A DNA stretch of 64,000 nucleotides, taken from a virus. Its lineage: Duplodnaviria > Caudoviricetes. How positions within the stretch are numbered: position 1 is the stretch's first letter; every line of letters starts with the position of its first letter. The stretch lies in IMG/VR virus record IMGVR_UViG_3300042561_002102, one strand, 5' to 3'. A program made the position numbers and the translations under genes. Shown here in pieces: positions 617 to 18,782 of this stretch. The notes beneath the pieces are model-generated. The model ran no database searches and had not been told where the DNA came from. It saw only the letters and a list, made by a program, of their open reading frames with translations.

Positions 617-627
617 AACACTATATA

Positions 628-1299: not shown

Positions 1300-1315
1300 A
1301 ACACTATATATTATA

Positions 1316-1987: not shown

Positions 1988-1998
1988 AACACTATATA

Positions 1999-2670: not shown

Positions 2671-2680
2671 ACTCTATATA

Positions 2681-3352: not shown

Positions 3353-3362
3353 ACTCTATATA

Positions 3363-4034: not shown

Positions 4035-4045
4035 AACACTATATA

Positions 4046-4717
4046 TTAAAGATATCCACCGATAGACCACAAGTCGTCTATCTTCAGGAGTATATTCTCG
4101 GGTAATGTCTTTTTTAGCTCTTCTTGTGTTTTTTTAAATCCTTCGGTATTCCAGGCAAGACTTACGTAATATGGGAAATCAGGATCTTGGTCGATTTGTT
4201 CTTTTATAACTTCAGGTGTGAAGAAATGATGTGTAAGAAGGAGTGATATTTCATCTGGTTTGATTTGGTCTATCCTGTTTAGGAATGATGGTAAGTTATA
4301 TTTGAATCGGGTATTCTTGAAAAGGAAGTTACCCTCTATCACTTCAGGTGCTCCTTCTAGAGATATCAGTGGATTTTTATAACACCTAAAATCTCCACCA
4401 ACCACTCTAGGTGCTCCTTCAAGAGTTCTCAGTTGGTTACTGAAACAACTAAAATGTTCACCAACCTCCCTAGGTGATCCTTCAAGAGTTCTCAGTTGGT
4501 TACCCCAACAATAAAAACCTCCACTCACCTTTCCAAACCTAATACCTAAGAAATCTTCAAGTCCTTGTTCATGGCCCCAAAAACTTCCCTTGACATCAAC
4601 AAGTCCTTCACTATTCACCCACCACTTTCCACAAGCAATCCTATCTAAAAACTTACTTTGCTCATCCGTTAAACCATCATTACTCTCGAATAGCTTATAA
4701 TCTCTTAGATATCTCAT
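4046..4717 (-). CDS. LRR-array paralogue A6 (223 aa)
   Basis: Same architecture. Confidence 0.92.
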   Translation of the reverse strand: MRYLRDYKLFESNDGLTDEQSKFLDRIACGKWWVNSEGLVDVKGSFWGHEQGLEDFLGIRFGKVSGGFYCWGNQLRTLEGSPREVGEHFSCFSNQLRTLEGAPRVVGGDFRCYKNPLISLEGAPEVIEGNFLFKNTRFKYNLPSFLNRIDQIKPDEISLLLTHHFFTPEVIKEQIDQDPDFPYYVSLAWNTEGFKKTQEELKKTLPENILLKIDDLWSIGGYL

Positions 4718-4727
4718 ACTCTATATA

Positions 4728-5399
4728 TTAAAGATATCCACCGATAGACCACAAGTCGTCTATCTTCAGGAGTATATTCTCGGGTAATATCTTTTTTAGT
4801 TCATCTTGTGTTTTTTTAAATCCTTCGGTATTCCAGGCAAGACTTATGTAATATGGGAAATCAGGATTTTTAGTTATTTGTTCCTTAATAACCTCGGGTG
4901 TAAAGAAATGATGAGTAAGAAGGAGTGTTATTACATCTGGTTTTACATGGGCTATCCTGTTTAGGAATGATTGTAAGTTATATCTGAAAACGGTTCTCTT
5001 GAACAAGAATTGACCCTCTATCACTTCAGGTGCTCCCTCTAGAGATATCAAGGGATTTCCATGACAATGAAAATCTCCATCAACCTTTCTAGGTGCCCCT
5101 TCAAGAGTTCTCAGTTGATTAGCCCAACAATAAAAACCTTCACCAACCTCCACGGGTGATCCTTCAAGAGTTCTCAGTTGGTTACTACGACAACTAAAAT
5201 CTCCACTCACCTTTCCAAACCTAATACCCGAGAAATCTTCAAGTCCTTGACTATGACAATAAAAATCTCCCTCGACATCAACAAGTCCTTCACTATTCAC
5301 CGACCAAGTTCCACGAGTATACTCATCTAAGAACTTCCTCTGCTCATCCGTCAAACCATCACGACTCTCGAATAACTTATAATCTCTAAGATATCTCAT
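4728..5399 (-). CDS. LRR-array paralogue A7 (223 aa)
   Basis: Same architecture; start trimmed. Confidence 0.92.
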   Translation of the reverse strand: MRYLRDYKLFESRDGLTDEQRKFLDEYTRGTWSVNSEGLVDVEGDFYCHSQGLEDFSGIRFGKVSGDFSCRSNQLRTLEGSPVEVGEGFYCWANQLRTLEGAPRKVDGDFHCHGNPLISLEGAPEVIEGQFLFKRTVFRYNLQSFLNRIAHVKPDVITLLLTHHFFTPEVIKEQITKNPDFPYYISLAWNTEGFKKTQDELKKILPENILLKIDDLWSIGGYL

Positions 5400-5410
5400 A
5401 ACACTATATA

Positions 5411-6082
5411 TTAAAGATATCCACCAATAGACCATAAGTCGTCTATCTTCAGGAGTATATTCTCAGGTAATATCTTTTTTAGTTCATCTTGTTTCTTCTT
5501 GAACGGTTCTGTATTCCAAACAAGACTTACGTAGTATGGAAAGTTCGGATTTTTAGTTATTTGTTCTTCGATAACTTTAGGTGTAAAGAAATGATGGGTA
5601 AGAAGTAGTGATATTTCATCTGGGTTGATTTGGTCTATTTTTCTAAGGAATGATTGTAAGTCATAGTCGAAAAAGGTATCGTTGAAACAAAAGTCATTCT
5701 TTATCACATCAGGAGCTCCCTCTAGGGATATCAGGGGATTTAGATAACAATAAAAACTTCCATCAACCTCTGTAGGTGATCCTTCAAGAGTTCTTAGTTG
5801 GTTACCATGACACAAAAAATCTCCACCAACCTCGCTGGGTGCCCCTTCAAGAATCCTTAGTTGGTTACTAGAACAATTAAAACTTCCTCTCACCTTTCCA
5901 AACCTGATACCCAAGAAATCTTCAAGTCCTTGATCTTCACAAAGAAAACTTTCCTTGACATCAACAAGTCCTTCATTATTCACCGACCAAGTTCCATAAG
6001 TATTCCTATCTAAAAACTTCCTCTGCTCATCCGTTAAACCATCACGACTCTCAAATAACCTATAACCCTGGATATACTTCAT
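5411..6082 (-). CDS. LRR-array paralogue A8 (223 aa)
   Basis: Same architecture; starts MKYIQGY. Confidence 0.92.
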   Translation of the reverse strand: MKYIQGYRLFESRDGLTDEQRKFLDRNTYGTWSVNNEGLVDVKESFLCEDQGLEDFLGIRFGKVRGSFNCSSNQLRILEGAPSEVGGDFLCHGNQLRTLEGSPTEVDGSFYCYLNPLISLEGAPDVIKNDFCFNDTFFDYDLQSFLRKIDQINPDEISLLLTHHFFTPKVIEEQITKNPNFPYYVSLVWNTEPFKKKQDELKKILPENILLKIDDLWSIGGYL

Positions 6083-6093
6083 AACACTATATA

Positions 6094-6765
6094 TTAAAGA
6101 TATCCACCAATAGACCACAAATCATCTATCTTCAGGAGTATATTCTCGGGTAAGATCTTTTTTAGATCCTCTTGTTTCTTCTTGAACGGTTCTGTATTCC
6201 AAACAAGACTTACGTAATATGGGAAATCAGTATTTTGAGTTATTTGTTCCCGAATAACCTCGGGTGTAAAGAAATGATGGGTAAGTAGGAGTGATATTAA
6301 TTCTGGTTTCATACGGTCTATCTCGTTTAGGAATGATTGTAAGTTATATCTGAAATAGGTTTTCTTGAAACTGAATTGACCCTCTATCACTTCAGGTGCT
6401 CCCTCTAGAGATATAAGTGGATTTTCATAACAATAAAAACTTCCACCAACCACTCTAGGTGATCCTTCAAGAGTTCTCAGTTGGTTACCCCAACACCCAA
6501 AATCTCCACCAACCTAGCTGGGTGCCCCATCAAGAGTTCTTAGTTGGTTACTACTACAATAAAAACTTCCGCTCACCTTTCCAAACCTGATACCTAAGAA
6601 ATCTTCAAGTCCTTGACCTTGACAATAAAAACCTCCCTTGATATCAACAAGTCCTTCACTATTCACCGACCAAATTCCACTAATACACTTAGCTAAAAAC
6701 TTCCTCTGCTCATCCGTTAAACCATCACGACTCTCGAATAGCTTATACTTTCTAATATACTTCAT
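6094..6765 (-). pseudogene. LRR-array paralogue A9 with internal nonsense codon
   Basis: Full-length 672-bp frame with an in-frame TAG at 6514-6516 where paralogues have GAG (APS-E-V). Confidence 0.85.
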
Positions 6766-6866
6766 ACTACTATATATTAAAGATATCCACCGATAAACTA
6801 CCCTTCATCTACTCCCTCTAGATCCTCTTGAGATAGGATTCTACGAAGCTCATTTTTTTGAAGGTG

Positions 6867-6988
6867 AGATACATTTAGGTTTTCTTTTTTAATATATACA
6901 CTAAAATAATAAACGAAGATGAAAGATAAAAGACACATAAAAAGTTTTAATGAAGCAACAGAAAACTTGAACATATCTGGTCTTAGTG
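6867..6988 (+). repeat. Degenerate leader-type attC-like element (left core lost)
   Basis: AGATACATTT..AACATATCTG arms; homologous to 10140-10273 and 12582-12716; contains TAATATATA and the ATG of the 6919 ORF. Confidence 0.6.
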
Positions 6989-7173
6989 ATAGTAGTTTTA
7001 ATTTTAATGATGAAAAGTTAAGAACTATGATGAAAGATTTAGTTGATTATACAAGAGGTAAGATCAGAGAGGTTCCAAAAGATACAGAGTCGAAAAAATT
7101 CGTTGATAATTTCATCAAAGAATATGAAGACTGGTATAAATTAAGTGATGAAGAACAGAGGTCTGCTATTTAA
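6919..7173 (+). CDS. Hypothetical protein with shared MKxxxHIKSFNE..ENLNIS leader
   Basis: ORF; first ~21 aa homologous to the ORFs at 10204 and 12647, remainder unrelated. Confidence 0.75.
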   Translation: MKDKRHIKSFNEATENLNISGLSDSSFNFNDEKLRTMMKDLVDYTRGKIREVPKDTESKKFVDNFIKEYEDWYKLSDEEQRSAI

Positions 7174-7186
7174 TTAAAACTATTAT

Positions 7187-7321
7187 CACTAACTCGTTTA
7201 CCTGTCCAGTTTTCCTTCACCTATAGAACACAACCATGATGTATTTGTGCCTTTAAGATTTGGAAATCTGAAAATTATTTTGTATATTTGTAAAAAAACT
7301 TACCCATACACCTTGTTATAA
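7187..7321 (+). repeat. Promoter-type cassette boundary element (CACTAAC...GTTATAA)
   Basis: Homologous to 8967-9080 and 12467-12579; carries TTTG (7259) and TATATTTG (7283-7290), matching the Bacteroidota sigma70 -33/-7 consensus. Confidence 0.65.
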
Positions 7322-7334
7322 AACGGTTTTTATT

Positions 7335-7535
7335 ATGAAAAATTCAGAAAATCAAAAAGATTTAGTAAAGGCATGGACCAAGATGGAATTAAATTCTTCT
7401 TACGGATTCCCACCAGTTCCAATCATACCAATGGAATATGATGAAAATAAAGCACTTCAAATTACCGAAGAAGGTAAGAAGAATTTAATGGTGATGCAGG
7501 AAGCGTTGAAAAATGTTCAAACTGAGAACGGGTAA
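7335..7535 (+). CDS. Hypothetical protein
   Basis: ORF beginning 14 nt after GTTATAA. Confidence 0.6.
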   Translation: MKNSENQKDLVKAWTKMELNSSYGFPPVPIIPMEYDENKALQITEEGKKNLMVMQEALKNVQTENG

Positions 7536-7586
7536 AAAGAAAATAAAAATTTTAGAGAGGCAATTAATAAATTTAAACATTAAACT

Positions 7587-8009
7587 ATGTTAGTAAAATT
7601 AAATATTATTCAAGAAACAGAGAAAGCATATAAACTAGAAGGTAATGGTTGGATACCAAAATCTGTATTAGACAACAGAGGACTAAAACATCCTTACTAT
7701 CAAATTAAAGGATGGTGGCTTCAAAATTTAGTTGGGAAACTACATGATAACGAAGCAACTATACAAGAAAAAGAAACTCTAACAAGTTTGAGTAAATGTA
7801 GGATCAAATTAACAGACTTATCAAAAGATGATTTGAATTTTTGGCAAAAATATTGGGATGATGCTTATAATTCATTACCGCCATCGAGAAGTGAAAGGGC
7901 AACACCAAAACACAAATCAAAAAAGAATAATAATCTTGAACATTGGAATGATATAGGTGCTATGAATGATTTATCTTTTCAAGATTTGTATGGAGATTTT
8001 GGTTATTAA
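7587..8009 (+). CDS. Hypothetical protein
   Basis: 140-aa ORF. Confidence 0.7.
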   Translation: MLVKLNIIQETEKAYKLEGNGWIPKSVLDNRGLKHPYYQIKGWWLQNLVGKLHDNEATIQEKETLTSLSKCRIKLTDLSKDDLNFWQKYWDDAYNSLPPSRSERATPKHKSKKNNNLEHWNDIGAMNDLSFQDLYGDFGY

Positions 8010-8068
8010 ATAATTAGTAGAAACCTTAAGAGGTATTTCACATATATCTTGTTATAAAACGTTATTTT

Positions 8069-8245
8069 ATGAAAAAGATTAATAAGAAATACCCAGTTAA
8101 TCATAAAGATGTGTTATTGAGTGGAATTAACACACTTACAAACGAAAATATAAAAGTTATTGGTTATAGGATAAAGGGGGAAAACAGGTTTATAACTTCA
8201 CCAAAAGGATGGTGTGTTAATTTCACACATTATGAAGAACTATAA
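8069..8245 (+). CDS. Hypothetical protein (58 aa, not in ORF track)
   Basis: MKKINKKYPV...HYEEL; bounded by GTTATAAAACG (8051) and TATAAC (8251). Confidence 0.55.
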   Translation: MKKINKKYPVNHKDVLLSGINTLTNENIKVIGYRIKGENRFITSPKGWCVNFTHYEEL

Positions 8246-8250
8246 TGTTT

Positions 8251-8303
8251 TATAACGACCGATAATAAACAATCGTTTTGGTGTTGTTTATCATTTGTTA
8301 TAA
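8251..8303 (+). repeat. Short attC-like hairpin
   Basis: TATAAC-gaccg-ataataaacaa..ttgtttatcat-tt-GTTATAA; near copy of 13190-13243. Confidence 0.75.
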
Positions 8304-8350
8304 GTATGTAAAACAAAAATTATAAAAATTAATATAAAAAACAAAAAAAT

Positions 8351-8584
8351 ATGAGTTGGAAATTAAATACAGAAGATGAAAATCCATTATGGAGACAATA
8401 TATGGATGAACTTGAAAAAATGAATCCTGAAGAACAAAGAAAATGGGAAGTTGTGAGAGAACTACCAGTTGAATTACCATTTAAGACAACAACAACTTCA
8501 AACTATTCAGAGGATGAATTTTTGGAAAAACTTAAAACAGATGAAGAATTTAACAAAAGGTGGGGGAAACTGAAAAACTCATAA
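8351..8584 (+). CDS. Hypothetical protein
   Basis: 77-aa ORF, followed by a left half-site TATAAC..ataaacaa at 8599-8620. Confidence 0.65.
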   Translation: MSWKLNTEDENPLWRQYMDELEKMNPEEQRKWEVVRELPVELPFKTTTTSNYSEDEFLEKLKTDEEFNKRWGKLKNS

Positions 8585-8630
8585 TTTTTTTTATTAGATA
8601 TAACGGTCGAGTATAAACAAATGCAAAATT

Positions 8631-8954
8631 ATGAAAGAAATTAAAGTAAGAAGTAAAGACAATAAACAGTTTATTTTGAAAAAAGATGGAACTTATGCAA
8701 AAGTCAATAATTTTAAAGTTGGTGATATTTTTAAATTCATAAAAGAGTGGAAAACAAGTGAAGGTGATGTTCAAGTTGGCGATGTTTTTATTATTGACTC
8801 AGTATGGGAAAACGATAAAAAATCACAAGGTGTTTATTGGATTAGATGTATTAATAGGAAACGTGATGGTAGAAAAGATAGGGATTGGGTTATGGGAACA
8901 TCTTTAATGGATTTCAATGATAGTTATGGTGATATTTTTATTATTAACCAATAA
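8631..8954 (+). CDS. Hypothetical protein
   Basis: 107-aa ORF. Confidence 0.7.
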   Translation: MKEIKVRSKDNKQFILKKDGTYAKVNNFKVGDIFKFIKEWKTSEGDVQVGDVFIIDSVWENDKKSQGVYWIRCINRKRDGRKDRDWVMGTSLMDFNDSYGDIFIINQ

Positions 8955-8966
8955 AATTTTTGATAT

Positions 8967-9080
8967 TGAATATATTTCGTTTATTTGTCCAGTTCCCCTT
9001 CACCCATACACCAGGAATATGATGTATTTTTGTAGGTAAGATTTGGAAATCTCGAAATTTATACTTACATTTGTAAAAAA
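8967..9080 (+). repeat. Promoter-type boundary element, degenerate left core
   Basis: tgaatatatttcgtttatt..taagatttggaaatctcgaaa..TACATTTG (9066-9073); homologous to the 7187 and 12467 copies. Confidence 0.6.
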
Positions 9081-9233
9081 TTAAAAATAAGTAAAATAAA
9101 ACTATATGGTAATTTTAATTTGGTTAGTAATGGGTGCGTCAGGTGTATTAATTTCTAACGCCATACACAGTATTTTTTGGGCTGGATTTCAATAATTTTT
9201 TATCTTTAGATATTTATATATAAACATAAAACT

Positions 9234-9476
9234 ATGAGTAAAGAAATGGGAAAATACATCGACACTTTCAAACAAAGAATTTTGAAAGAAAATGAAGAAT
9301 TTAATGAAGATGACACAACGAAATATCTTGATTGTTTGGATTCACTTAAAAAAGTTGATGATGGAATACATAGAGAGGAAGTATTTGATTGGTTTAAGGA
9401 GAATAATATAGATTTCTTTAATATGAGTGAATTACGTATGTATATTCTCTATATTGAGAGAAATGCGGTTAGGTAA
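9234..9476 (+). CDS. Hypothetical protein
   Basis: 80-aa ORF after a TATATA motif. Confidence 0.65.
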   Translation: MSKEMGKYIDTFKQRILKENEEFNEDDTTKYLDCLDSLKKVDDGIHREEVFDWFKENNIDFFNMSELRMYILYIERNAVR

Positions 9477-9514
9477 AAATATTGTGTAGATGAGGATTAT
9501 ATATCTTTATATTT

Positions 9515-10021
9515 ATGGATAAAGAGATTATGAAACAAAGAATAAAACATATTAGAAAAACCATTAGAGATTTCATTAGTGAAAATCTACAAAATGAAAA
9601 ATTAATTCAACCCATCAAAGAGTCATCGGTTATGGATAAATTAGTTGATGAGCAGCGTTACTCAGATATGAATTATAATAATATTGTTATTGATTTTTTT
9701 ACAGGTATGAGAGGAATTGATGATTTATTTGAATCCATATACGAAGGATTATATGGTGGAGTTCAACGATATAGAGTAGAACCTAATGAAGGTAATTTTG
9801 ATAAAGATTTCTTAATTAAGTTTATTAAAATAAATCAGGGTGATAATGATTTTGATTATGAACTTGGAAGGATCGGTTATAGATTTCTAACTTCGGATGA
9901 AGGGTTAAAAGAATTATCAAAATTCTACCTAGACGAATTAAAAACATACAAAGATGAATATGTCTCAAATGAAGTTATTGAAAATTGTAAGAAATCGTTA
10001 ATTAATATAATCGGCACATAA
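9515..10021 (+). CDS. Hypothetical protein
   Basis: 168-aa ORF. Confidence 0.7.
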   Translation: MDKEIMKQRIKHIRKTIRDFISENLQNEKLIQPIKESSVMDKLVDEQRYSDMNYNNIVIDFFTGMRGIDDLFESIYEGLYGGVQRYRVEPNEGNFDKDFLIKFIKINQGDNDFDYELGRIGYRFLTSDEGLKELSKFYLDELKTYKDEYVSNEVIENCKKSLINIIGT

Positions 10022-10069
10022 TTTTAATTTTTCTCAAGAAGGGTGGAAAATTTTCATTGTATATAACTT

Positions 10070-10108
10070 ATGAACTACACATCAGCTAAAGACTGATGTG
10101 TAGTTCAT
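10070..10108. mobile_element. Solo IS200/IS605-end-like palindrome (MITE/PATE-like)
   Basis: Perfect 16-bp arms ATGAACTACACATCAG/CTGATGTGTAGTTCAT. The loop reads TCTTTAG on the minus strand, the same as the tnpB left-end loop; the terminus GTGTAGTTCAT equals the tnpB right end. Confidence 0.65.
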
Positions 10109-10139
10109 TTGTAGATTTTTAAAAAAAAATTACATCCGG

Positions 10140-10273
10140 ACATAACGGCTACAGATATATTTAGGTTTTCTTTTTATATATATACTAAAAATAATAAACG
10201 AGTATGAAAGATTTAAAACACTTAAAGAGATTTAACGAGTCAGATGAAAACTCGAATATATCTGATGTTAGAA
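10140..10273 (+). repeat. Leader-type attC-like element
   Basis: ACATAAC-ggcta-cagatatatt ... aatatatctg-at-GTTAGAA; the loop holds TATATA, an ATG and the leader codons. Confidence 0.75.
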
Positions 10274-10446
10274 GTGATAAATCACACATTGATTTCTTGG
10301 ATGAATTTGTTGAAAAAATAAACCAGTTAAGAGATGATGTTAAAAAGAAGGGTTATGTTGATAATGAAAATGTGGATTTTATAGAGGAGCTTTACTCTGT
10401 TTATTCATTTTATTATGATACAGAGGAGAGGTTTGTTAAAAATTGA
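10204..10446 (+). CDS. Hypothetical protein with shared leader
   Basis: MKDLKHLKRFNESDENSNISDV, then unique sequence. Confidence 0.75.
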   Translation: MKDLKHLKRFNESDENSNISDVRSDKSHIDFLDEFVEKINQLRDDVKKKGYVDNENVDFIEELYSVYSFYYDTEERFVKN

Positions 10447-10454
10447 TTTATATG

Positions 10455-11794
10455 TCAAGTCAAAGAAAACACAGAAGTCTTTAGCTTCTGTGATGAATTT
10501 GTAAATATTTTACTAAAAATAGTAAAAAAGTTTAAGAAAATACAAAAAGGAACTTTGAAACTTTAATATATACTAATATGTTAAAGTCGTATAAATATAA
10601 GATTAAACCAACAGAAGATCAAAAAGTCTTGTTAAACAAGCATTTTGGATCTATAAGGTTTGCTTATAATTACTTCTTGAATGAGCGTAAATTTGAATAC
10701 GAAACCAATAAACAAACCTTAAATTATAATGATAATTCTGCGACTTTGACAAAGCTTAAAAAACAAGAAGAATTCAAGTGGTTAAAGGAAATCAATAGCC
10801 AATCACTTCAACATTCACTCAAAAGTTTAGATGATTCTTATAATTCCTTTTTTAAGAAAAGAACTGGATTTCCTAAATTTAAATCTAAACATAGTAAAAA
10901 TTCATTTAAAGTTCCTCAATTTGTTAGGGTAAATGATGGATGTTTAATAATACCAAAGTTTAAAGATCCTATCAAGATGATCCAAGATAGAAAGTTTAAA
11001 GGTGATATTAGACAAGCTACATTATCAAAAACACCTACAAATGAGTATTTTGTAAGTATTTTAGTTGAAACAGATCACAAGAAGTTTGATAAGACCGGTA
11101 AAGAAGTTGGGATTGATCTAGGAATTAAAGATTTCGTTATAACTAGTGATGGACATAAGTATAAGAATAATAAATTTACAAAAACTTACGAAAATAAACT
11201 TACAGAAAATCAAAGACATTTGGCTAAAAAAGTTAGGGGAAGTAGTAAATATAACAAACAAAAACTTAAAGTAGCTAAACTACACAAGAAGATAACCAAT
11301 TCTCGTTTAGATAATCTACATAAAGTATCCACAGAGTTAGTCAGGAAGTATGATGTAATCTATCTTGAAGATCTAAACATCAAAGGAATGATTAAAAATC
11401 ATAAATTGGCTAAACACATTTCAGACGCTTCGTGGGGTAAATTCATTACCCTACTGGAATATAAAGCTATTTGGAATGACAAGCAGATAGTTAAAATCGA
11501 TAGATTTTTTCCATCCAGTAAGCAATGTAATAATTGTGGATTCATAAATCAAAATTTAAAATTGGATTGTAGGGAATGGACTTGTCCTTCCTGTAATACG
11601 GAGTTAGATAGAGATTTAAATGCTAGTAAAAATATCCTTAAAGAAGGAATTAAAACATTATCGTTTGGAACAGACGATTACAGACATGGAGCTCAAATAA
11701 GACCAGTTTTAACTGGCACAGGCGATGAAGTGTTTAAAAAGAAGGAGCTAATGTCTCCCGAAACACAACGAACTTTAGTCGTTGTGTAGTTCAT
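10455..11794 (+). mobile_element. Non-autonomous IS200/IS605-family (IS1341-like) element
   Basis: tnpB without tnpA; left hairpin cacagaag-tctttag-cttctgtg (10470-10492); right hairpin acacaacga-actttag-tcgttgtgt-agttcat (11763-11794). The exact left boundary is uncertain. Confidence 0.75.
10578..11789 (+). CDS. tnpB: RNA-guided endonuclease TnpB
   Basis: N-terminal HTH_OrfB-type sequence (YKYKIKPT..LLNKHFG..RFAYN); RuvC motifs GIDLG, EDL and DRDLNAS; CxxC..CxxC zinc ribbon. Confidence 0.95.
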   Translation: MLKSYKYKIKPTEDQKVLLNKHFGSIRFAYNYFLNERKFEYETNKQTLNYNDNSATLTKLKKQEEFKWLKEINSQSLQHSLKSLDDSYNSFFKKRTGFPKFKSKHSKNSFKVPQFVRVNDGCLIIPKFKDPIKMIQDRKFKGDIRQATLSKTPTNEYFVSILVETDHKKFDKTGKEVGIDLGIKDFVITSDGHKYKNNKFTKTYENKLTENQRHLAKKVRGSSKYNKQKLKVAKLHKKITNSRLDNLHKVSTELVRKYDVIYLEDLNIKGMIKNHKLAKHISDASWGKFITLLEYKAIWNDKQIVKIDRFFPSSKQCNNCGFINQNLKLDCREWTCPSCNTELDRDLNASKNILKEGIKTLSFGTDDYRHGAQIRPVLTGTGDEVFKKKELMSPETQRTLVVV

Positions 11795-11966
11795 AAAGAC
11801 GGCACAATAAAAGAAATTTATAGAGATAAAAAACAATAGAAGTGATGGCAAAAAAAATAGAAGTGATATTGAAACTAATAATCGCAATATTAACAGGTGT
11901 TGTGGTTTGGGAGTGGTTTCAAATCATTTCTATTTTGACCATCGAATCCGGTAAATTTTCATAGAT

Positions 11967-12272
11967 ATGACAGAAGAACAAATGAAAGAATATGTAGTAA
12001 ATGGTGGAAAACTTTTTACTATCAAAACGATTGAAATTATTAGAGATGGTGGGACTGTTGTATTAGACACAACTGGTGGTGTTTTTTTCATACATAAGGA
12101 TAGTAAAAAGTTTCACTATCGTTATTCACCAAGTAATGAAAATTTGGTAACAGATTTACTTTTGGTAGAATATTTGATTGAACGAATTGAGGTATACATT
12201 AAAAGATGTGAGGAAGATGTCCAGAGAAATAAAAATCTTTTAATTGAAATTCAAAAACAAAAAACATTCTGA
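11967..12272 (+). CDS. Hypothetical protein
   Basis: 101-aa ORF. Confidence 0.7.
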   Translation: MTEEQMKEYVVNGGKLFTIKTIEIIRDGGTVVLDTTGGVFFIHKDSKKFHYRYSPSNENLVTDLLLVEYLIERIEVYIKRCEEDVQRNKNLLIEIQKQKTF

Positions 12273-12286
12273 TAATATAGATTTAT

Positions 12287-12466
12287 ATGGAAAAAGAAAG
12301 GGAAAAAACAACAATCTTCTGTGGTGTTTATCACGAAATGACCGAAGAGGAGAAGAACAATTTTATCAATATGATGTCAGAAAATGGAAAGTATGATGTT
12401 GTTTTTGATGATGGTAATACTATACCTAAATTAGTGGAAATGTCTCTACCATTTTTAAAAACTTGA
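12287..12466 (+). CDS. Hypothetical protein (59 aa, not in ORF track)
   Basis: MEKEREKT...PFLKT; stop lies 3 nt before TAAC at 12470. Confidence 0.55.
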   Translation: MEKEREKTTIFCGVYHEMTEEEKNNFINMMSENGKYDVVFDDGNTIPKLVEMSLPFLKT

Positions 12467-12579
12467 ATATAACTCGTTTATTCGTGAAGTTTTACCAACC
12501 CTATACACCCGAATGATGTTGTATTTGTGTTGGTAAGATTTGGAAATCTCGAAACTTATTTGTATATTTGTAAAAAAAT
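12467..12579 (+). repeat. Promoter-type boundary element
   Basis: TATAACTCGTTTAT...TTTG (12539)...TATATTTG (12563-12570). Confidence 0.65.
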
Positions 12580-12581
12580 TA

Positions 12582-12716
12582 CACATAACGTCTCTTAGAT
12601 ATATTTAGGTTTTTTTTTTAATATATACTAAAAACAATTTACGAAGATGAAAGGTAATAAACACATAAAAAGTTTCAACGAGCATCAAGAAAACTTGAAT
12701 ATATCTGATGCTGGCG
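12582..12716 (+). repeat. Leader-type attC-like element with mutated right core
   Basis: CACATAAC..agatatattt ... aatatatctg-at-GCTGGCG. Confidence 0.65.
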
Positions 12717-13183
12717 AAGGCTTTGGATTGAAAACTGGTAAATATGTATTATATAACCATCAGACCATTCCATTACCAATTGAAATTACTGAGATAGGTA
12801 TGGATGGCTGGATAGAATTTGAAACTGACTATTCAGTTGGTAATAAACAATATTGGGTAAAGGAATTCATTGGAACAGAAATGGAGGGACTTGTATACGA
12901 TCCGATCAGGGGTTGGTTTAAATTTAGTGAGATAGAAAAAGTAGAAGGAAAAAAAATATACTTGCTTGTTGGTGATATTTTCAAAATTAAAGCACAGAGA
13001 TTAATAGATGATACTAAAAAACTAAAAGACGAATACTCCCAAAGCCAATATAAAAAGATAATAGATTTAGAAAAACTAATACATGGAACAGAAGATGATA
13101 GGAAAAAGTTTGTTAAATCTATTATGAGACTTTTAGGAATGACAAAGTGGGACTTACCAGATGAGTTGTATAGGTATTTGTAA
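12647..13183 (+). CDS. Hypothetical protein with shared leader
   Basis: MKGNKHIKSFNEHQENLNISDA, then unique sequence. Confidence 0.8.
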   Translation: MKGNKHIKSFNEHQENLNISDAGEGFGLKTGKYVLYNHQTIPLPIEITEIGMDGWIEFETDYSVGNKQYWVKEFIGTEMEGLVYDPIRGWFKFSEIEKVEGKKIYLLVGDIFKIKAQRLIDDTKKLKDEYSQSQYKKIIDLEKLIHGTEDDRKKFVKSIMRLLGMTKWDLPDELYRYL

Positions 13184-13189
13184 AATTAT

Positions 13190-13243
13190 CACTAACGTAT
13201 GATGATAAACAATCGTTTTAATGTTGTTTATCATTTGTTATGT
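13190..13243 (+). repeat. Short attC-like hairpin
   Basis: CACTAAC-gtatg-atgataaacaa..ttgtttatcat-tt-GTTATGT; perfect 11-bp inner stem. Confidence 0.8.
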
Positions 13244-13272
13244 GTAGTCTATTTCATAAATATATAATTAAT

Positions 13273-13725
13273 ATGAAGCTAAAAAAATACAACGAATACA
13301 ATTCACATAAAGATACATTAATAGTATCAGCTTTTCCAGGATGTGGAAAATCACACTATTTCAGAGAAAATAGGGACAAAATCGTACTTGACTCTGATTC
13401 AAGTAAGTTTGATAAATCAGATTTTCCAAGAAACTATATTCAACATATCAAAGAAAATAGGGGTAAAGTCGATGTTATAATGGTTTCTTCTCATAAAGAG
13501 GTAAGGGATGCGTTGGTAGAAAATGGAATAGAATTTACATTAGTATATCCTGATAAATCTATAAAAGATGAGTATATTCAAAGATATATTGATAGAGGTA
13601 GTCCAGATTCATTTATCAACTTACTTACGAAAAATTGGGAATTGTGGATTGATGAACTCGATAATCAAATTGGTTGTGATAAAATAAAACTAAAAGAAGG
13701 TGAATATCTTTCGGATGTTTTATAA
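13273..13725 (+). CDS. Small P-loop NTPase / kinase-like protein
   Basis: IVSAFPGCGKS Walker A; VLDSDSS; start trimmed to MKLKKYNE. Confidence 0.7.
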   Translation: MKLKKYNEYNSHKDTLIVSAFPGCGKSHYFRENRDKIVLDSDSSKFDKSDFPRNYIQHIKENRGKVDVIMVSSHKEVRDALVENGIEFTLVYPDKSIKDEYIQRYIDRGSPDSFINLLTKNWELWIDELDNQIGCDKIKLKEGEYLSDVL

Positions 13726-13734
13726 AATAGATTA

Positions 13735-13867
13735 CACATAACGATACTCAGATATACTCAGTTCCCAGATTTAATATATAAACTTAAATTGAAACACGAA
13801 ACAATTGAAAAGAACAGAATTAAAAGATTTAACGAAAACTCAGAATTGAATATATCTGATGTTAGCA
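13735..13867 (+). repeat. Leader-type attC-like element (divergent loop)
   Basis: CACATAAC..cagatatactca ... tgaatatatctg-at-GTTAGCA. Confidence 0.7.
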
Positions 13868-13974
13868 GTTCGTTGTATCCTACCGATGAACAAATTTTAG
13901 AAATGGTAGAAGATTTTACAAAAGACTTGAATGTGAGCAACACAGTTAAAAAAGCGACGATTTGTGGTCTATAG
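13789..13974 (+). pseudogene. Truncated leader-fused ORF joined to array B upstream remnant
   Basis: RIKRFNENSELNISDV leader; at ~13955 it runs into array sequence GACGATTTGTGGTCTATAGG. Confidence 0.5.
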
Positions 13975-13999
13975 GGGGGTATCTTTAATATATAGTCAT

Positions 14000-14671
14000 A
14001 TGAAGTATATTAGAAAGTATAAGTTATTTGAGAGTAGTGATGGTTTGACGGATGAGCAAAGGAAGTTTTTAGATAGGAATACTGAAGGAACTTGGTCGGT
14101 GAATAAAGAAGGACTTGTTGATGTTAGGGGAAGTTTTTGGTGTCAAGGTCAAGAACTTGGAGATTTCTTAGGTATCAAGTTTGGAAAGGTGAGTGGAAGT
14201 TTTTTTTGTTGGGGTAACCAACTGAGAACTCTTGAAGGATCACCTAGAGAGGTTGGTGGAAATTTTGGGTGTAATGGTAACCAACTGAGAACTCTTGAAG
14301 GATCCCCTATGATGGTTGGTGAAAGTTTTTGGTGTGGAGAAAATCCTTTAATATCTTTAGAAGGAGCTCCTGAAGTGATAGAGGAAGAGTTCAAATTCAA
14401 GAATACCTGGTTCGACTATAACTTACAATCATTCCTAGACGAGATAGACCGTATCAAGCCGGATGAAATATCACTGCTACTTACCCATCACTTCTTCACA
14501 CCACAAGTTATAAAAGAACAAATAACTAAAAATCCTGATTTCCCGTATTATGTAAGTCTTGCCTGGAATACAGAAGGATTCAAAAAAACACAAGATGAAC
14601 TTAAAAAGATCTTACCCGAGAATATACTCGTGAAGATAGACGACTTGTGGTCTATTGGTGGATATTTATAA
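14000..14671 (+). CDS. LRR-array paralogue B1 (223 aa)
   Basis: MKYIRKYKLFES; same architecture as array A. Confidence 0.92.
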   Translation: MKYIRKYKLFESSDGLTDEQRKFLDRNTEGTWSVNKEGLVDVRGSFWCQGQELGDFLGIKFGKVSGSFFCWGNQLRTLEGSPREVGGNFGCNGNQLRTLEGSPMMVGESFWCGENPLISLEGAPEVIEEEFKFKNTWFDYNLQSFLDEIDRIKPDEISLLLTHHFFTPQVIKEQITKNPDFPYYVSLAWNTEGFKKTQDELKKILPENILVKIDDLWSIGGYL

Positions 14672-14682
14672 TATATAGTAGT

Positions 14683-15354
14683 ATGAAGTATATCCAGGGT
14701 TATAAGTTATTCGAGAGTCGTGATGGTTTGACGGATGAGCAGAGAGAGTTTTTAGATAGGATTGCTCGTGGAAGGTGGTCGGTGAATAGTGAAGGACTTG
14801 TTGATATCAAGGGAATTTTTATTTGTAGTGGTGAAGGACTTGAAGATTTCTTAGGTATCAGGTTTGGAAAGGTGAGTGGAAATTTTTCTTGTAGAGATAA
14901 CCAACTGAGAACTCTTAAAGGATCACCTAGAGAGGTTGGTGGAGATTTTAGTTGTCGTGGTAACCAACTTAGAACTCTTGAAGGATCACCTAGAAAGGTT
15001 GATGGATGTTTTTATTGTTATAGAAATCCACTGGTATCCCTAGAGGGAGCTCCTGAAGTGATAGAGGGTAGCTTCTATTTCAAGAATACCTGGTTCAGAT
15101 ATAACTTACCATCATTCCTGAACTGGATAGACCGTATCAAACCGAGTGAAATATCACTACTACTTACCCATCATTTCTTTACGATTGAGGTTATTCAGGA
15201 ACAAATCGACCAAAATCCTGATTTCCCATATTATGTAAGTTGCGCCTGGAATACTGAAGGATTCAAGAAGAAACAAGAAGAGCTAAAAAAGATATTACCC
15301 CAGAATATACTCGTTAAGATAGATGATTTGTGGTCTATTGGTGGATATCTTTAA
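14683..15354 (+). CDS. LRR-array paralogue B2 (223 aa)
   Basis: Same architecture. Confidence 0.92.
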   Translation: MKYIQGYKLFESRDGLTDEQREFLDRIARGRWSVNSEGLVDIKGIFICSGEGLEDFLGIRFGKVSGNFSCRDNQLRTLKGSPREVGGDFSCRGNQLRTLEGSPRKVDGCFYCYRNPLVSLEGAPEVIEGSFYFKNTWFRYNLPSFLNWIDRIKPSEISLLLTHHFFTIEVIQEQIDQNPDFPYYVSCAWNTEGFKKKQEELKKILPQNILVKIDDLWSIGGYL

Positions 15355-15366
15355 TATATACAGAGT

Positions 15367-16038
15367 ATGAAGTATATCCAGGGTTATAGGTTATTTGGGA
15401 AAGTAGATAGTCTCACTGACGAGCAGAGGAAGTTTTTAGATAAGTATATTTCAGGAAGATGGTCAGTGAATGGTGGAGGACTTGTTGATATCGAGGGAAG
15501 TTTTATTCCTGGTGGTGGAGGACTTGAAGATTTCTTAGGTATCAGGTTTGGAAAGGTGAGTGTAAGTTTTAATTGTTGGGGTAACCAACTGAGAACTCTT
15601 GAAGGGGCACCTAGGGTGGTTGATGGAAATTTTAGTTGTTCTAAGAACCAACTGAGAACTCTTGAAGGATCACCTAGAGTGGTTCGTGGAAGTTTTTGGT
15701 GTGAAGGAAATCCCTTGATATCCCTAAAGGGAGCCCCTGAAGTGATAGAGGGTTCCTTCTGTTTCAAGAATACTTATTTCGGATATAACTTACAATCATT
15801 CCTTGAAAAAATAGACGACGACCAACCTGATGAAATATCACTCCTACTTACCCATCACTTCTTCACACCTCAAGTTATCGAAGAACAAATAACTAAAAAT
15901 CCTGATTTCCCATACTACGTAAGTCTTGTTTGGAATACAGAACCGTTCAAGAAGAAACAAGATGAACTAAAAAAGATCCTACCCGAGAATATACTCGTGA
16001 AGATAGATGATCTGTGGTCTATTGGTGGATACCTTTAA
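15367..16038 (+). CDS. LRR-array paralogue B3 (223 aa)
   Basis: Same architecture. Confidence 0.92.
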   Translation: MKYIQGYRLFGKVDSLTDEQRKFLDKYISGRWSVNGGGLVDIEGSFIPGGGGLEDFLGIRFGKVSVSFNCWGNQLRTLEGAPRVVDGNFSCSKNQLRTLEGSPRVVRGSFWCEGNPLISLKGAPEVIEGSFCFKNTYFGYNLQSFLEKIDDDQPDEISLLLTHHFFTPQVIEEQITKNPDFPYYVSLVWNTEPFKKKQDELKKILPENILVKIDDLWSIGGYL

Positions 16039-16048
16039 TATATAGAGT

Positions 16049-16783
16049 ATGAAGTATATTCGAGATTATAAGCTATTTGAGAGTCGTGATGGTTTGACGG
16101 ATGAGCAGAGGAAGTTTTTAGATAAGAATACTCGTGGAACTTGGTCGGTGAATAGTGAAGGACTTGTTGATGTCGACGGAAGTTTTTGGTGTGAAGATCA
16201 AGAACTTGGTGACTTCTTGGGTATCAGGTTTGGAGAGGTAATTGGAAGTTTTCGGTGTTATGCTAACCAACTGAGAACTCTTGAAGGATCACCCAGAAAG
16301 GTTGGTGGAAATTTTAGTTGTTTCAGTAACCAACTGAGAACTCTTGAAGGATCACCTAGGGAGGTTGTTGGGGGTTTTTATTGTTTTCGTAACCAGCTGA
16401 GAACTCTTGAAGGATCACCTAGAGTGGTTGGTGGACATTTTAATTGTTCGGAAAATCTACTGATATCTCTAGAAGGAGCACCTGAAGTGATAGAGGGTCA
16501 TTTCTGTTTCAAGAATACCTGGTTCAGCTATGACTTACGATCATTCCTGAACGAGATAGACCGTATAAAACCAGATGAAATATCACTGATACTTATCCAT
16601 CACTTCTTTACACCCGAGGTTATTCGGGAACAAATAACTCGAAATCCTGATTTTCCATATTACGTAAGTCTTGTTTGGAATACAGAAGGGTTCAAAAAAA
16701 CACAAGAAGTCCTAAAAAAGATCTTACCCCAGAATATACTCGTTAAGATAGATGATTTGTGGTCTATTGGTGGATATTTATAA
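16049..16783 (+). CDS. LRR-array paralogue B4 (244 aa, one extra repeat)
   Basis: 223+21 aa. Confidence 0.92.
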   Translation: MKYIRDYKLFESRDGLTDEQRKFLDKNTRGTWSVNSEGLVDVDGSFWCEDQELGDFLGIRFGEVIGSFRCYANQLRTLEGSPRKVGGNFSCFSNQLRTLEGSPREVVGGFYCFRNQLRTLEGSPRVVGGHFNCSENLLISLEGAPEVIEGHFCFKNTWFSYDLRSFLNEIDRIKPDEISLILIHHFFTPEVIREQITRNPDFPYYVSLVWNTEGFKKTQEVLKKILPQNILVKIDDLWSIGGYL

Positions 16784-16794
16784 TATATAGTATT

Positions 16795-17403: not shown

Positions 17404-17414
17404 TATATAGTGTT

Positions 17415-18086: not shown

Positions 18087-18098
18087 TATATACAGAGT

Positions 18099-18770: not shown

Positions 18771-18782
18771 TATATACAGAGT

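What the first reader, a model, noticed from the sequence alone, without database searches (positions are those of the whole stretch)
6867..13867. Integron-like cassette array with attC-like hairpins and no integrase in view
Seen: about 14 small unrelated ORFs, all on plus. Stops are repeatedly followed within 3-20 nt by TAAC (7190, 8253, 8601, 12470, 13193, 13739; degenerate at 8973), and ORFs begin shortly after GTTA (7315, 8051, 8297, 13237). Complete sites share the geometry TAAC-N5/6-stem-loop-stem-N2-GTTA despite unrelated stems (48-bp type at 8253 and 13193; ~127-bp type at 10143 and 13739). Established: integron attC sites are RYYYAAC..GTTRRRY imperfect palindromes recombined as ssDNA hairpins with extrahelical bases. 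Inference: this is a phage-borne gene-cassette capture and shuffling locus with a non-canonical attC class.
Basis: partly seen in the sequence, partly recalled or inferred. Interest (0 to 1): 0.88.

Follow-up and report, generated by a model that had tools for sequence, protein, structure and literature searches.

The report
Orphan integron-like cassette array in phage
A giant lake-water phage of Bacteroidota carries a row of small single-gene units separated by folded DNA hairpins with a fixed TAAC...GTTA core; it is a recombinase-less, partly decayed member of a large, barely described integron-like gene-shuffling system that related phages run with a small Xer-like recombinase.

Summary
Window 6867-13975 holds about 17 small plus-strand ORFs. 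They are separated by four intact hairpin sites (8253-8300, 10143-10270, 13193-13240, 13739-13864) and about seven truncated or degenerate ones.

The same site class occurs in well over 150 IMG/VR phage contigs. Stems are unrelated and co-vary, while the geometry is fixed: ATTR-N4-TAAC, short spacer, stem, loop, stem, GTTA-N4-YAGT. In 301 unique neighbouring site pairs, the five bases after GTTA pair perfectly with the five bases before the next TAAC in 60%, against 1.5% of random pairs. This is the integron cassette signature.

Homology between phages breaks inside TAAC, and two window cassettes recur in other phages with exactly these borders.

In all 27 loci with a full-length copy of a 266-aa Xer-like tyrosine recombinase, every site lies upstream on the same strand, and the array ends in TAAC plus an attI-like sequence. 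That enzyme lacks the IntI-specific insertion, and cassette genes face the opposite way to classical integrons.

The window holds no recombinase, and the whole genome could not be checked. About half of comparable arrays are also orphans.

This scan has already found the same system on other DNA in at least 25 genomes. The published literature I could search reports only a few phage attC clusters.

The parts
6867..6993 (+). Long-class site B1. The TAAC side is missing where it meets the remnant of the flanking repeat-gene array. Arms are 6867-6886 and 6959-6978. The loop holds TTAATATATA (6889-6898) and ATG 6919. The right core is degenerate (CTTA, 6982-6985). The right outer box is GTGATAGT (6986-6993).
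6919..7173 (+). Cassette ORF of 84 aa that starts inside B1. Its end box GTGATAGT pairs with ATTATCAC (7182-7189) before the next TAAC.
   Evidence: no Pfam or PHROG match
7182..7326 (+). Variant site A1. It comprises outer box ATTATCAC, TAAC 7190, the Bacteroidota-type promoter TTTG-N20-TATATTTG (7259-7290), a 3' arm, GTTA 7315 and outer box TAAAACGG. It does not fold into the canonical hairpin.
7335..8009 (+). Two ORFs of 66 aa and 140 aa with no family match.
8010..8062 (+). 3' half of an 87-nt-class site (loop end, 3' arm, GTTA 8051, outer box TAAAACGT). The 5' half is lost.
   Evidence: same 3' half as the complete sites in L066, L078 and L113
8069..8245 (+). Cassette ORF of 58 aa. Its start box TAAAACGT pairs with ATGTTTTA (8245-8252) before TAAC 8253, with one T.G pair.
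8245..8308 (+). Complete short site C1. It comprises the outer box, TAAC 8253, a 4-nt spacer, a 12-bp stem, an 11-nt loop, GTTA 8297 and outer box TAAGTATG.
8351..8584 (+). Cassette ORF of 77 aa. The unit 8251-8605 is 88% identical to L103:1375-1727. Homology begins at TAACG and ends at the next TAACG.
8593..8623 (+). Truncated short site with outer box ATTAGATA, TAAC 8601 and the 5' arm only. The box carries two changes compared with the L103 copy (ATTACTTA), which still pairs with the cassette start.
8631..8954 (+). ORF of 107 aa with no family match.
8966..9080 (+). Variant element A2. The core is mutated (TATT in place of TAAC) and it holds a promoter-like TTTG-N20-TACATTTG at 9042-9073.
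9106..10067 (+). ORFs of 29, 80 and 168 aa, closed by outer box ATTGTATA plus TAAC (10056-10067). The stretch 9666-10067 is 89% identical to L098 and L067. Homology stops exactly at TAAC, and a different hairpin follows in each of the three genomes.
10068..10108 (+). Perfect 14-bp hairpin directly after TAAC 10064. It shares GTGTAGTTCAT with the right end of the TnpB element and is probably an insertion-sequence end rather than a cassette site.
10129..10278 (+). Complete long site B2. It has TAAC 10143, arms of 18 bp and GTTA 10267. The loop holds a TATATATA motif, ATG 10204 and 21 codons.
10204..10446 (+). ORF of 80 aa that starts inside B2.
10450..11800 (+). TnpB-only IS605-family element inserted in the array. 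The ORF is 10578-11789 (403 aa), with hairpins at 10471-10493 and 11765-11787.
   Evidence: OrfB_IS605, Cas12f1-like_TNB, HTH_OrfB_IS605
11842..12466 (+). Three ORFs of 40, 101 and 59 aa with no family match.
12462..12577 (+). Variant element A3 with outer box CTTGAATA, TAAC 12470 and promoter TTTG-N20-TATATTTG at 12539-12570. It has no GTTA end and runs straight into B3.
12578..12713 (+). Long site B3 with outer box ATTACACA, TAAC 12586, conserved arms, TTAATATATA at 12618 and ATG 12647. The right core is mutated to GCTG (12710-12713) and it no longer folds canonically.
12647..13183 (+). ORF of 178 aa that starts inside B3. It is closed by ATTATCAC plus TAAC 13193.
   Evidence: no relatives in IMG/VR
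13185..13248 (+). Complete short site C2 with TAAC 13193, GTTA 13237 and outer box TGTGTAGT. Its 35-nt core is identical in more than 120 IMG/VR contigs.
   Evidence: DNA fold -10 kcal/mol, z -3.6
13273..13725 (+). Cassette ORF of 150 aa, P-loop-like, phrog_4182. The start box TGTGTAGT pairs with ATTACACA (13731-13738). The same family is a cassette in L002 and L003 but an ordinary gene in 24 other phage loci.
13731..13872 (+). Complete long site B4 with TAAC 13739, GTTA 13861 and TTAATATATA at 13771. Its arms are shortened on both sides compared with B1-B3.
13789..13974 (+). Last ORF of 61 aa (TTG start) that starts inside B4. The array ends at a remnant of the flanking repeat-gene unit (about 13941-13976). 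No attI-like sequence or recombinase gene follows.

Best explanation
Window 6867-13975 is an orphan array of an integron-like cassette system found in phages of Bacteroidota and in some Bacteroidota chromosomes.

The unit is a hairpin site plus the gene or genes behind it.

On the sense strand each site can fold. TAAC pairs with GTTA. Next comes an asymmetric unpaired spacer of 3-5 nt on one side against 0-1 nt on the other. Then comes a 12-25 bp stem of free but co-varying sequence, and a loop of 11 to about 90 nt.

Outside the core, ATTR-N4 before each TAAC pairs with N4-YAGT after the previous GTTA. In an excised circle the two ends of a unit would therefore close into one long hairpin.

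In relatives a 266-aa Xer-like tyrosine recombinase gene follows the array on the same strand, behind a hairpin-less TAAC-TAtTATATAT site. I infer that this enzyme cuts and exchanges the folded strand within TAAC, excising and inserting units as IntI does at attC and attI.

Viewed from the folding strand the layout is the same as in an integron: array, simple site, recombinase. The cargo genes, however, lie on the folding strand and point towards the recombinase. No common promoter can then drive them, which would explain why the sites carry their own expression signals. The medium class carries host-type TTTG/TAnnTTTG promoters. The long class carries a TTAATATATA motif plus the start codon and about 20 codons.

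What is shown: site anatomy, co-variation, cassette-specific ends, exchange points at TAAC, recombinase adjacency, and absence of the IntI insertion.

What is inferred: that the recombinase acts on these sites, that single-stranded DNA rather than RNA is the active form, and that circles form.

In this window the array has no recombinase in view. It is interrupted by a TnpB element and has lost about two thirds of its intact junctions. It is probably a passive remnant that could move only with an enzyme supplied in trans.
For: 1. Site class. A scan for TAAC-spacer-stem-GTTA finds 789 sites in the window plus 204 phage loci, against 126 in shuffled DNA. Stems are unrelated between families. In 56 sites of the 87-nt class, 18 of 25 pairs show two-sided compensatory changes, while TAAC/GTTA and two G.T pairs stay invariant or nearly so.

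2. Cassette ends. In 301 unique neighbouring pairs, 60% have five perfectly complementary variable bases. Random pairs give 1.5% and the two flanks of a single site give 1.8%. There are 67 different 5-mers, and Fisher p is about 1e-226 (first seen). Window examples are 6986/7182, 8055/8245 and 13241/13731.

3. Exchange point. Where the upstream gene is shared and the rest differs, identity ends 4-8 letters into TAAC plus spacer in 17 of 18 junction pairs. Where the hairpin and downstream gene are shared and the upstream differs, identity ends 4-6 letters back in all 16 pairs. Non-C hairpins never stay with the upstream gene (0 of 29). They stay, wholly or partly, with the downstream gene in 26 of 47 pairs.

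4. Window cassettes elsewhere. 8251-8605 matches L103 from TAACG to TAACG. 9666-10067 matches L098 and L067 up to TAAC, then three different hairpins follow.

5. Strand. Non-Watson-Crick stem pairs are G.T or T.G 786 times and A.C or C.A 123 times on the sense strand.

6. Recombinase. In all 27 loci with the full-length enzyme, the 2-12 sites lie upstream on the same strand and none lie downstream. The gap is 154-976 nt. A conserved TAAC-TAtTATATAT sits 60-75 nt before the ATG. In the 281-kb record G003, all 8 real sites form one array next to the gene. Orthologues of 52-63% identity in Bacteroidota genome records show the same layout.

7. Expression signals. 63% of 101-140-nt sites hold an ATG whose frame reads out of the site, against 3% of 60-100-nt sites. 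Promoter motifs were found.
Against: - No recombinase gene lies in the 64-kb window (tblastn E > 2). The rest of the genome is not held.
- Only 4 of about 11 junctions are intact, and only 3 window units keep complementary ends.
- Contigs of four lake metagenome runs tile the array without change, so no shuffling of this copy is seen. In all, 20 runs from 2020-2025 hold at least 96% of its sampled words.
- The hairpins are AT-rich and weak as DNA: -6 to -14 kcal/mol, z -1.5 to -3.6. Two of the window's elements do not fold canonically.
- G.T pairs on the sense strand fit an RNA structure equally well.
- In 21 of 47 non-C pairs the hairpin differs although the downstream gene is shared. This implies a second exchange point at GTTA, which a single cleavage site does not explain.
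- 29 of 55 arrays lack the recombinase. Two large records, one of them rated 100% complete, have no PF00589 match at all.
- No experiment links this enzyme to these sites.
Confidence: 0.7

Rival explanations
1. The elements are regulatory cassettes like the promoter-early stem-loops (PeSLs) of T4-type phages. In that case they would be terminator hairpins plus promoters, and their sequence identity would let the phage's general homologous recombination shuffle the genes between them. No dedicated recombinase would be involved.
For: - The short element is identical over 35-49 nt in more than 120 contigs, enough for T4-style recombination (PMC2839356).
- Host-type promoters sit in or beside the sites.
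- Each hairpin is followed by a T-rich run.
- Half of the arrays have no recombinase.
Against: - Exchange occurs between hairpins with no sequence similarity, and it maps to the 4-nt core.
- Cassette-specific complementary ends have no role in homologous recombination.
- Stems co-vary while the cores stay invariant.
- The recombinase gene has a fixed position and strand in 27 of 27 loci.
Confidence: 0.12
2. The structures act only in RNA. The hairpins would be processing or termination signals in polycistronic transcripts, and the complementary gene ends would form 5'-3' stems that stabilise each processed mRNA. The modular mosaic would then be a side effect.
For: - G.U-compatible pairs are six times commoner on the sense strand than on the other strand.
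- An invariant G.U lies in the stem.
- All sites are co-oriented with the genes.
- Sites lie exactly between stop and start codons.
Against: - This reading does not explain why homology between genomes breaks inside TAAC.
- It does not explain why arrays end at a recombinase gene with a hairpin-less TAAC site.
- Pairing across 150-1500 nt of translated mRNA is unusual.
- In the long class, the TTAATATATA promoter-like motif lies inside the loop. If it is a real promoter, transcripts starting there would lack the 5' arm.
Confidence: 0.08
3. The hairpins are substrates of a single-strand HUH (Y1) transposase of the IS200/IS605 or REP/RAYT type, and the TnpB gene in the array belongs to that system.
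For: - The geometry is a conserved tetranucleotide a few bases 5' of a hairpin.
- A TnpB element lies at 10450-11800.
- An insertion-sequence-like hairpin sits directly 3' of TAAC 10064.
Against: - No Y1_Tnp match was found in five large records that carry the sites.
- TnpB is absent from the arrays of relatives. Its only matches outside are unrelated phages.
- There is one hairpin per junction, not a left end plus a right end per element.
- The IS hairpins (CACA..CTTTAG..TGTG) differ from the site class.
Confidence: 0.03

Closest known systems
Integrons: IntI, attI, attC-bounded cassettes, and CALINs (attC clusters lacking an integrase)
   Same: - Arrays consist of mostly single promoterless-size ORFs separated by imperfect palindromes.
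- The conserved part of each palindrome is AAC...GTT. It has an unpaired spacer between outer and inner helices and a terminal part of variable length.
- Structure is conserved while sequence is free.
- Cassette ends are complementary across the gene.
- One strand is favoured for folding.
- Seen from the folding strand, the order is array, simple site, tyrosine recombinase gene.
- Orphan arrays are frequent.
   Different: - The enzyme in relatives is 266 aa. It scores below the cut-off of the integron-integrase models and lacks about 48 residues where VchIntIA carries its extra helix.
- Cargo genes lie on the folding strand, so the hairpin precedes its gene and the genes point towards the recombinase.
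- I saw no extrahelical bases. Conserved G.T pairs appear instead.
- The sites carry promoters and, in the long class, the start codon.
- The hosts are phages of Bacteroidota.
- This window has no enzyme.
attC clusters reported in phage genomes (Qi et al. 2023, PMC9892861), including Polaribacter phage P12002L
   Same: These are attC-like sites between small ORFs in virulent phages without an integrase. One Bacteroidota phage is among them, and one of its sites was recombined by IntI1 in E. coli.
   Different: That study found 17 clusters in 10,705 genomes using classical attC models. In the passages I read, it does not mention an associated Xer-like enzyme, inverted gene orientation, cassette-specific ends or the size of the family. 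I did not test whether the P12002L sites belong to this class.
PeSL promoter/stem-loop cassettes of T4-type phages (PMC2839356, PMC4122927)
   Same: Both lie in hyperplastic regions of ORFans in large phages. Both are intergenic modules that combine a promoter with a stem-loop and sit at indel and replacement borders between related phages. PeSLs were themselves compared with integrons by their authors.
   Different: PeSLs are conserved sequences exchanged by homologous recombination at varying points within the module, and no recombinase is linked to them. Here the stems are unrelated, exchange maps to a 4-nt core, unit ends are complementary, and a recombinase gene is linked.
Xer/dif-type recombinases (XerA, XerC/D)
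   Same: The associated enzyme is closest to archaeal XerA and Pyrococcus XerC-like proteins in sequence and length.
   Different: Xer enzymes act on a double-stranded dif site, one per replicon. They do not act on arrays of folded sites beside their own gene.

Membership tests
Integron (sensu stricto) | An IntI integrase with the extra domain (I2 helix) between patches II and III | tested here: not met
   There is no tyrosine recombinase in the window. The enzyme beside related arrays scores 163.7 bits on TIGR02249, whose cut-off is 265. It aligns to VchIntIA in two pieces, with 36 residues where IntI4 has 84.
Integron (sensu stricto) | attC sites: R''/R' boxes with AAC/GTT, an unpaired central spacer, L boxes, and a variable terminal structure | tested here: met
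   TAAC/GTTA are invariant. The spacer is 3-5 nt against 0-1 nt. Stems co-vary. Loops run from 11 to about 90 nt. Site lengths are 48, 78-90 and 113-130 nt. The full RYYYAAC/GTTRRRY consensus is only partly matched (the position after GTTA is T or G). IntegronFinder and HattCI were not available.
Integron (sensu stricto) | Extrahelical bases that mark the recombined (bottom) strand | tested here: inconclusive
   No conserved bulged bases were seen. Strand asymmetry comes instead from G.T pairs (786 against 123) and from invariant G.T positions.
Integron (sensu stricto) | Cassette = ORF followed by its attC; the first bases of the cassette are complementary to the R'' box of its own attC | tested here: met
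   Complementarity across the gene holds in 60% of 301 pairs. However, the hairpin is linked to the downstream gene. On the folding strand this is the same topology, with the cargo orientation inverted.
Integron (sensu stricto) | attI next to intI, and a common Pc promoter reading into the array | tested here: not met
   Relatives have a hairpin-less TAAC-TAtTATATAT site before the recombinase gene. The genes read towards it, so no Pc arrangement is possible. The window has neither feature.
CALIN (cluster of attC sites lacking an integrase) | Two or more attC sites close together with no integron integrase nearby | tested here: met
   Four intact sites lie within 5.6 kb and there is no recombinase in 64 kb. 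This holds only if the site class is accepted as attC-like.
PeSL regulatory cassettes | A conserved promoter plus terminator stem-loop module, with exchange by homologous recombination inside the module | tested here: not met
   Promoters and hairpins are present. However, exchange joins unrelated hairpins at the TAAC core.
IS200/IS605 or REP/RAYT elements | A linked Y1 HUH transposase, with left-end and right-end hairpins for each element | tested here: not met
   PF01797 is absent from five large site-bearing records. There is one hairpin per junction.

The most novel reading that the evidence does not exclude
Phages of Bacteroidota may run a working 'inverse integron'. A short Xer-like tyrosine recombinase without the IntI extra domain would recombine folded sense-strand hairpins at TAAC, moving units that carry their own promoter. 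In the long class the units also carry their own start codon and N-terminal peptide inside the recombination site. This would be either an independent origin of integron chemistry or a relative of its ancestor. The orphan array in this window would be mobilisable in trans during co-infection.
Probability: 0.5. Interest if true: 0.9.

Novelty: new variant of a known kind. Interest (0 to 1): 0.8.

Why it matters
Integrons are the textbook device by which bacteria collect and reshuffle genes. They are defined by one enzyme family whose extra domain is thought to be necessary for recombining folded single strands.

A widespread phage system with the same site logic but a plain Xer-like enzyme would have three consequences:
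- It would make testable how integron recombination arose and what it minimally needs.
- It would give a mechanism for the ORFan-rich variable regions of large phages, which is probably where accessory and anti-defence genes are traded.
- It would offer a sequence signature (TAAC/GTTA hairpins with paired unit ends) for delimiting mobile phage genes in metagenomes.

The long sites, which embed a promoter and a start codon in a recombination site, are also of interest for how new genes become expressed on arrival.

Tried and rejected
- **Rfam.** A scan of 6000-15000 at E up to 1 gave only two chance-level hits and nothing attC-like.
- **Whole genome.** It is not held, so no genome-wide recombinase search was possible. 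First-stage notes on this genome mention no recombinase, which is a weak negative.
- **Relatives of window proteins.** None were found in IMG/VR for the 178-aa ORF or the flanking repeat protein.
- **Isolated phages, DNA.** A search of the array against GenBank phages matched only the TnpB gene. The short element matched one uncultured 462-kb record.
- **GTDB genomes.** The exact short-element pattern is absent from 185,579 species genomes. The system does occur in Bacteroidota records with other hairpins.
- **Cargo annotation.** Pfam and PHROGs gave nothing except phrog_4182 for the P-loop ORF.
- **Sequencing runs.** Only assembled contigs were available. They tile the array unchanged and break at the repeats. 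Several joints link a GTTA end to a distant TAAC (for example 13248 to 13738 and 8302 to 13193). These were laid at 85% likeness with short sides, so they probably come from other phages in the lake. I do not count them as excision of this copy.
- **Cultured phages with the nearest recombinases.** Polaribacter phage Freya_10 and Cellulophaga phage Ingeline_1 showed no canonical hairpins in my scan.
- **Folding energies.** On their own they are too weak to argue for or against structure.
- **Chance.** Rejected.
- **Literature.** Searches by element sequence and by keywords found no description of this family.

Full report
**What is in the window**

The stretch 6867-13975 is AT-rich (27-29% G+C, against 33-38% around it). 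It carries about 17 small plus-strand ORFs.

It lies exactly between two inverted tandem arrays of about 683-bp repeat genes. One array is on the minus strand (628-6811) and the other on the plus strand (13956-19391). They are 83% complementary over 1.4 kb.

The wider window encodes DnaK, UvdE, a 5'-3' exonuclease, a Dam methylase and many ORFans. Twelve of its ORFs have relatives of 26-59% identity in a 281-kb IMG/VR record, most of them in one roughly syntenic block. The genome is therefore most likely a giant phage of a Bacteroidota host. I identified no virion gene in this window myself.

The array sequence is held nearly unchanged by 20 lake-water metagenome runs from 2020-2025.

**Checking the observation**

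- TAAC follows the stop codon within 25 nt for 6 of 17 ORFs. Elsewhere in the window the figure is 1 of 51 (p = 0.0015).
- Four sites are complete: 8253-8300 and 13193-13240 (48 nt), and 10143-10270 and 13739-13864 (126-128 nt). They have the stated geometry and stems of 12-18 bp.
- Hits of that quality occur about once per 100 kb in shuffled DNA. They are almost absent from 0.5 Mb of phage DNA without arrays.
- The other junctions are truncated or mutated versions.
- Two variant elements (7190, 12470) carry a Bacteroidota-type promoter, TTTG-N20-TATATTTG.

**The sites are a large structured class, not a local repeat**

It is absent from 185,579 GTDB species genomes. A 17-nt arm of the long site led to about 45 further copies whose other arm, not used in the search, is equally conserved.

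A generic scan of the window plus 204 phage loci found 789 sites, against 126 in shuffled DNA. These fall into many families with unrelated stems and three size classes: 48, 78-90 and 113-130 nt.

Their common frame is ATTR-N4-TAAC, a 3-5-nt spacer that mostly begins with G, the stem, the loop, the stem, 0-1 nt, then GTTA-N4-YAGT.

In an alignment of 56 sites of the 87-nt class:

- TAAC and GTTA are invariant.
- 18 of 25 pairs show two-sided compensatory changes.
- One G.T pair in the stem is invariant (56 of 56), and the G.T pair next to the core is nearly so (54 of 56).

Because these sites were chosen for having stems, the fraction paired is biased. The diversity of compensated pairs is not.

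**Cassette signature**

The bases just after GTTA of one site are the reverse complement of the bases just before TAAC of the next site. The two ends of each gene unit therefore pair, while the two flanks of one site do not.

Among 301 unique neighbouring pairs, 60% match in all five variable positions. Random pairs give 1.5% and same-site flanks give 1.8%. There are 67 different 5-mers (first seen). A T.G pair at position 7 is conserved.

In the window this holds for three units: 6986-7189, 8055-8252 and 13241-13738. The unit 8301-8600 has lost it through two substitutions that its copy in L103 does not have.

**Exchange points**

Two window units recur in other phages.

- 8251-8605 is 88% identical to L103. 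Homology begins at TAACG and ends at the next TAACG, with unrelated flanks.
- 9666-10067 is 89% identical to L098 and L067. Homology ends exactly at TAAC, and a different hairpin follows in each genome.

Across all loci, non-C hairpins never stay with a shared upstream gene when the downstream gene differs (0 of 29). They stay, wholly or partly, with a shared downstream gene in 26 of 47 cases.

Walking along the junctions places the break within TAAC. Identity ends within 4-8 letters from one side in 17 of 18 junction pairs (one ran to 16), and within 4-6 letters from the other side in all 16.

The 21 cases with a different hairpin before the same gene imply a less frequent second break at GTTA. 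This could reflect occasional use of the other strand. It remains unexplained.

**Which strand**

Non-Watson-Crick pairs in stems are G.T or T.G 786 times on the sense strand. A.C or C.A, which would be G.T on the other strand, occur 123 times. The sense strand is therefore the one selected to fold, as DNA or as RNA.

**The enzyme in relatives**

A PF00589 search of five large records found a gene of about 266-278 aa in two of them, fragments in a third and none in two. One of the two without a match is rated 100% complete. No Y1 transposase was found.

In the 281-kb record all eight real sites form one array, and the gene lies directly behind it.

tblastn of that protein against all loci fetched by hairpin sequence alone found 27 full-length copies. 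In every one, the 2-12 sites lie upstream on the same strand and none lie downstream. The gap is 154-976 nt.

The last unit ends with the usual ATTR-N4-TAAC. Instead of a hairpin it is followed by a conserved TAtTATATAT-type sequence 60-75 nt before the ATG.

Of 55 arrays with enough downstream sequence, 22 have the full gene, 4 have a remnant and 29 have none.

Orthologues of 52-63% identity in Bacteroidota genome records show the same layout. These include Flavobacterium urumqiense and MAGs of Bacteroidales, Prolixibacteraceae and Roseivirgaceae.

The protein is closest to XerA-type recombinases. It stays below the cut-offs of all curated models, including both integron-integrase models. It has 36 residues where VchIntIA has 84, so the IntI-specific insertion is missing.

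**How it most likely works**

Read along the folding strand, the order is array, simple site, recombinase gene in sense. The hairpin sits at the 5' end of its unit and the break lies in the 5' AAC box. This matches a classical integron read along its bottom strand.

The one difference is that the cargo genes lie on the folding strand and point towards the recombinase. A common promoter cannot then serve them, and the sites themselves supply expression signals:

- Host-type promoters occur in about 10% of medium sites.
- The element at 7190 carries one.
- The long class carries a TTAATATATA motif, which also precedes the flanking repeat genes and tnpB (20 copies against 0.9 expected).
- In 63% of long sites, an ATG and about 20 codons read through the 3' arm and GTTA, which encodes Val-Ser or similar.

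That the recombinase acts on these sites, and that circles form, is inference from anatomy and linkage.

**This window's copy**

There is no recombinase in 64 kb and no attI-like site. A TnpB insertion sequence lies inside the array. Two thirds of the junctions are damaged, and no variation appears in the four metagenome assemblies laid on it. I read it as an orphan, decaying array, comparable to a CALIN.

The cargo is all ORFans except a P-loop protein (phrog_4182). That protein is a cassette here and in L002/L003, but an ordinary, translationally coupled gene in 24 other phage loci. This looks like recruitment of a resident phage gene into cassette form.

**Comparison with what is known**

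The closest known systems are:

- integrons and CALINs;
- the few phage CALINs of Qi et al. 2023 (PMC9892861);
- as a functional analogue, the PeSL cassettes of T4-type phages (PMC2839356 and PMC4122927).

Strict membership in the integron family fails on the enzyme and on the Pc/attI arrangement. The site logic is met.

I found no paper describing this family.

This scan has noted the same system before on other DNA: 33 findings in at least 25 genomes, and two with near-identical short elements. I reached the cassette-end signature, the exchange points and the recombinase before reading those notes. I re-tested their main claims here.

**Verdict**

The system is a new variant of a known kind. 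Interest is high for the system and moderate for this particular copy, which appears inactive.

Noticed in passing
window 628-6811 (-) and 13956-19391 (+): About 9 and 8 tandem copies of a 683-bp gene for a 223-235-aa protein with 21-residue leucine-rich-type repeats. They form inverted arrays (83% complementary over 1.4 kb) that bracket the cassette region exactly. A remnant of the gene's last codons (..WSIGGYL) sits at both borders. Recombination between the arms could invert the whole 7-kb array.
   Followed up: partly
window 10064-10108 and 10450-11800: A TnpB-only IS605-family element lies inside the array. A separate perfect 14-bp hairpin sits immediately 3' of a cassette TAAC and shares GTGTAGTTCAT with the element's right end. 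This raises the idea that such elements target TAAC. Metagenome contigs join 10505 to 11757, possibly a tnpB-less derivative.
   Followed up: no
L068:12507-12640: In one long-class site, the segment between the two arms (promoter motif, ATG, N-terminal codons) is inverted relative to its TAAC flank, and both arms are perfect complements. This could be an inversion between the arms.
   Followed up: no
window 9515-10021 versus L098 and L067: Homology of the 168-aa ORF with its relatives starts only about 150 nt into the gene. The N-terminal third is different in all three phages, so exchange also happens inside cassette genes.
   Followed up: no
L307 (Polaribacter phage Freya_10, MT732472.1) 1-4150: Ten Freya isolates differ by up to 4.9 kb, and the recombinase gene (40% identical to the array enzyme) shifts from position 83 to 4180. 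It is preceded by ATTGTTGC-TAAC. My scan found no canonical hairpins there.
   Followed up: partly
window 13066-13306, lake runs X18 and X19: Summed contig depth over the short hairpin is about 2300, against about 40 for neighbouring unique sequence. The element is therefore carried by many other genomes in the same lake.
   Followed up: no
window, 20 places (for example 622, 6771, 6889, 10563, 13985): TTAATATATA occurs 20 times (0.9 expected). In 19 of the 20 cases it lies just upstream of a gene start in the repeat-gene arrays, the long sites or tnpB; one copy lies at 21763. It is probably a phage-specific promoter or leader motif.
   Followed up: partly
alignment A6, columns 35/86 and 17/100: In the 87-nt class, a G.T pair in the middle of the stem is invariant (56 of 56), and the G.T pair closing the core helix is nearly so (54 of 56), while neighbouring pairs co-vary freely. 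These may be recognition or strand-choice marks.
   Followed up: no
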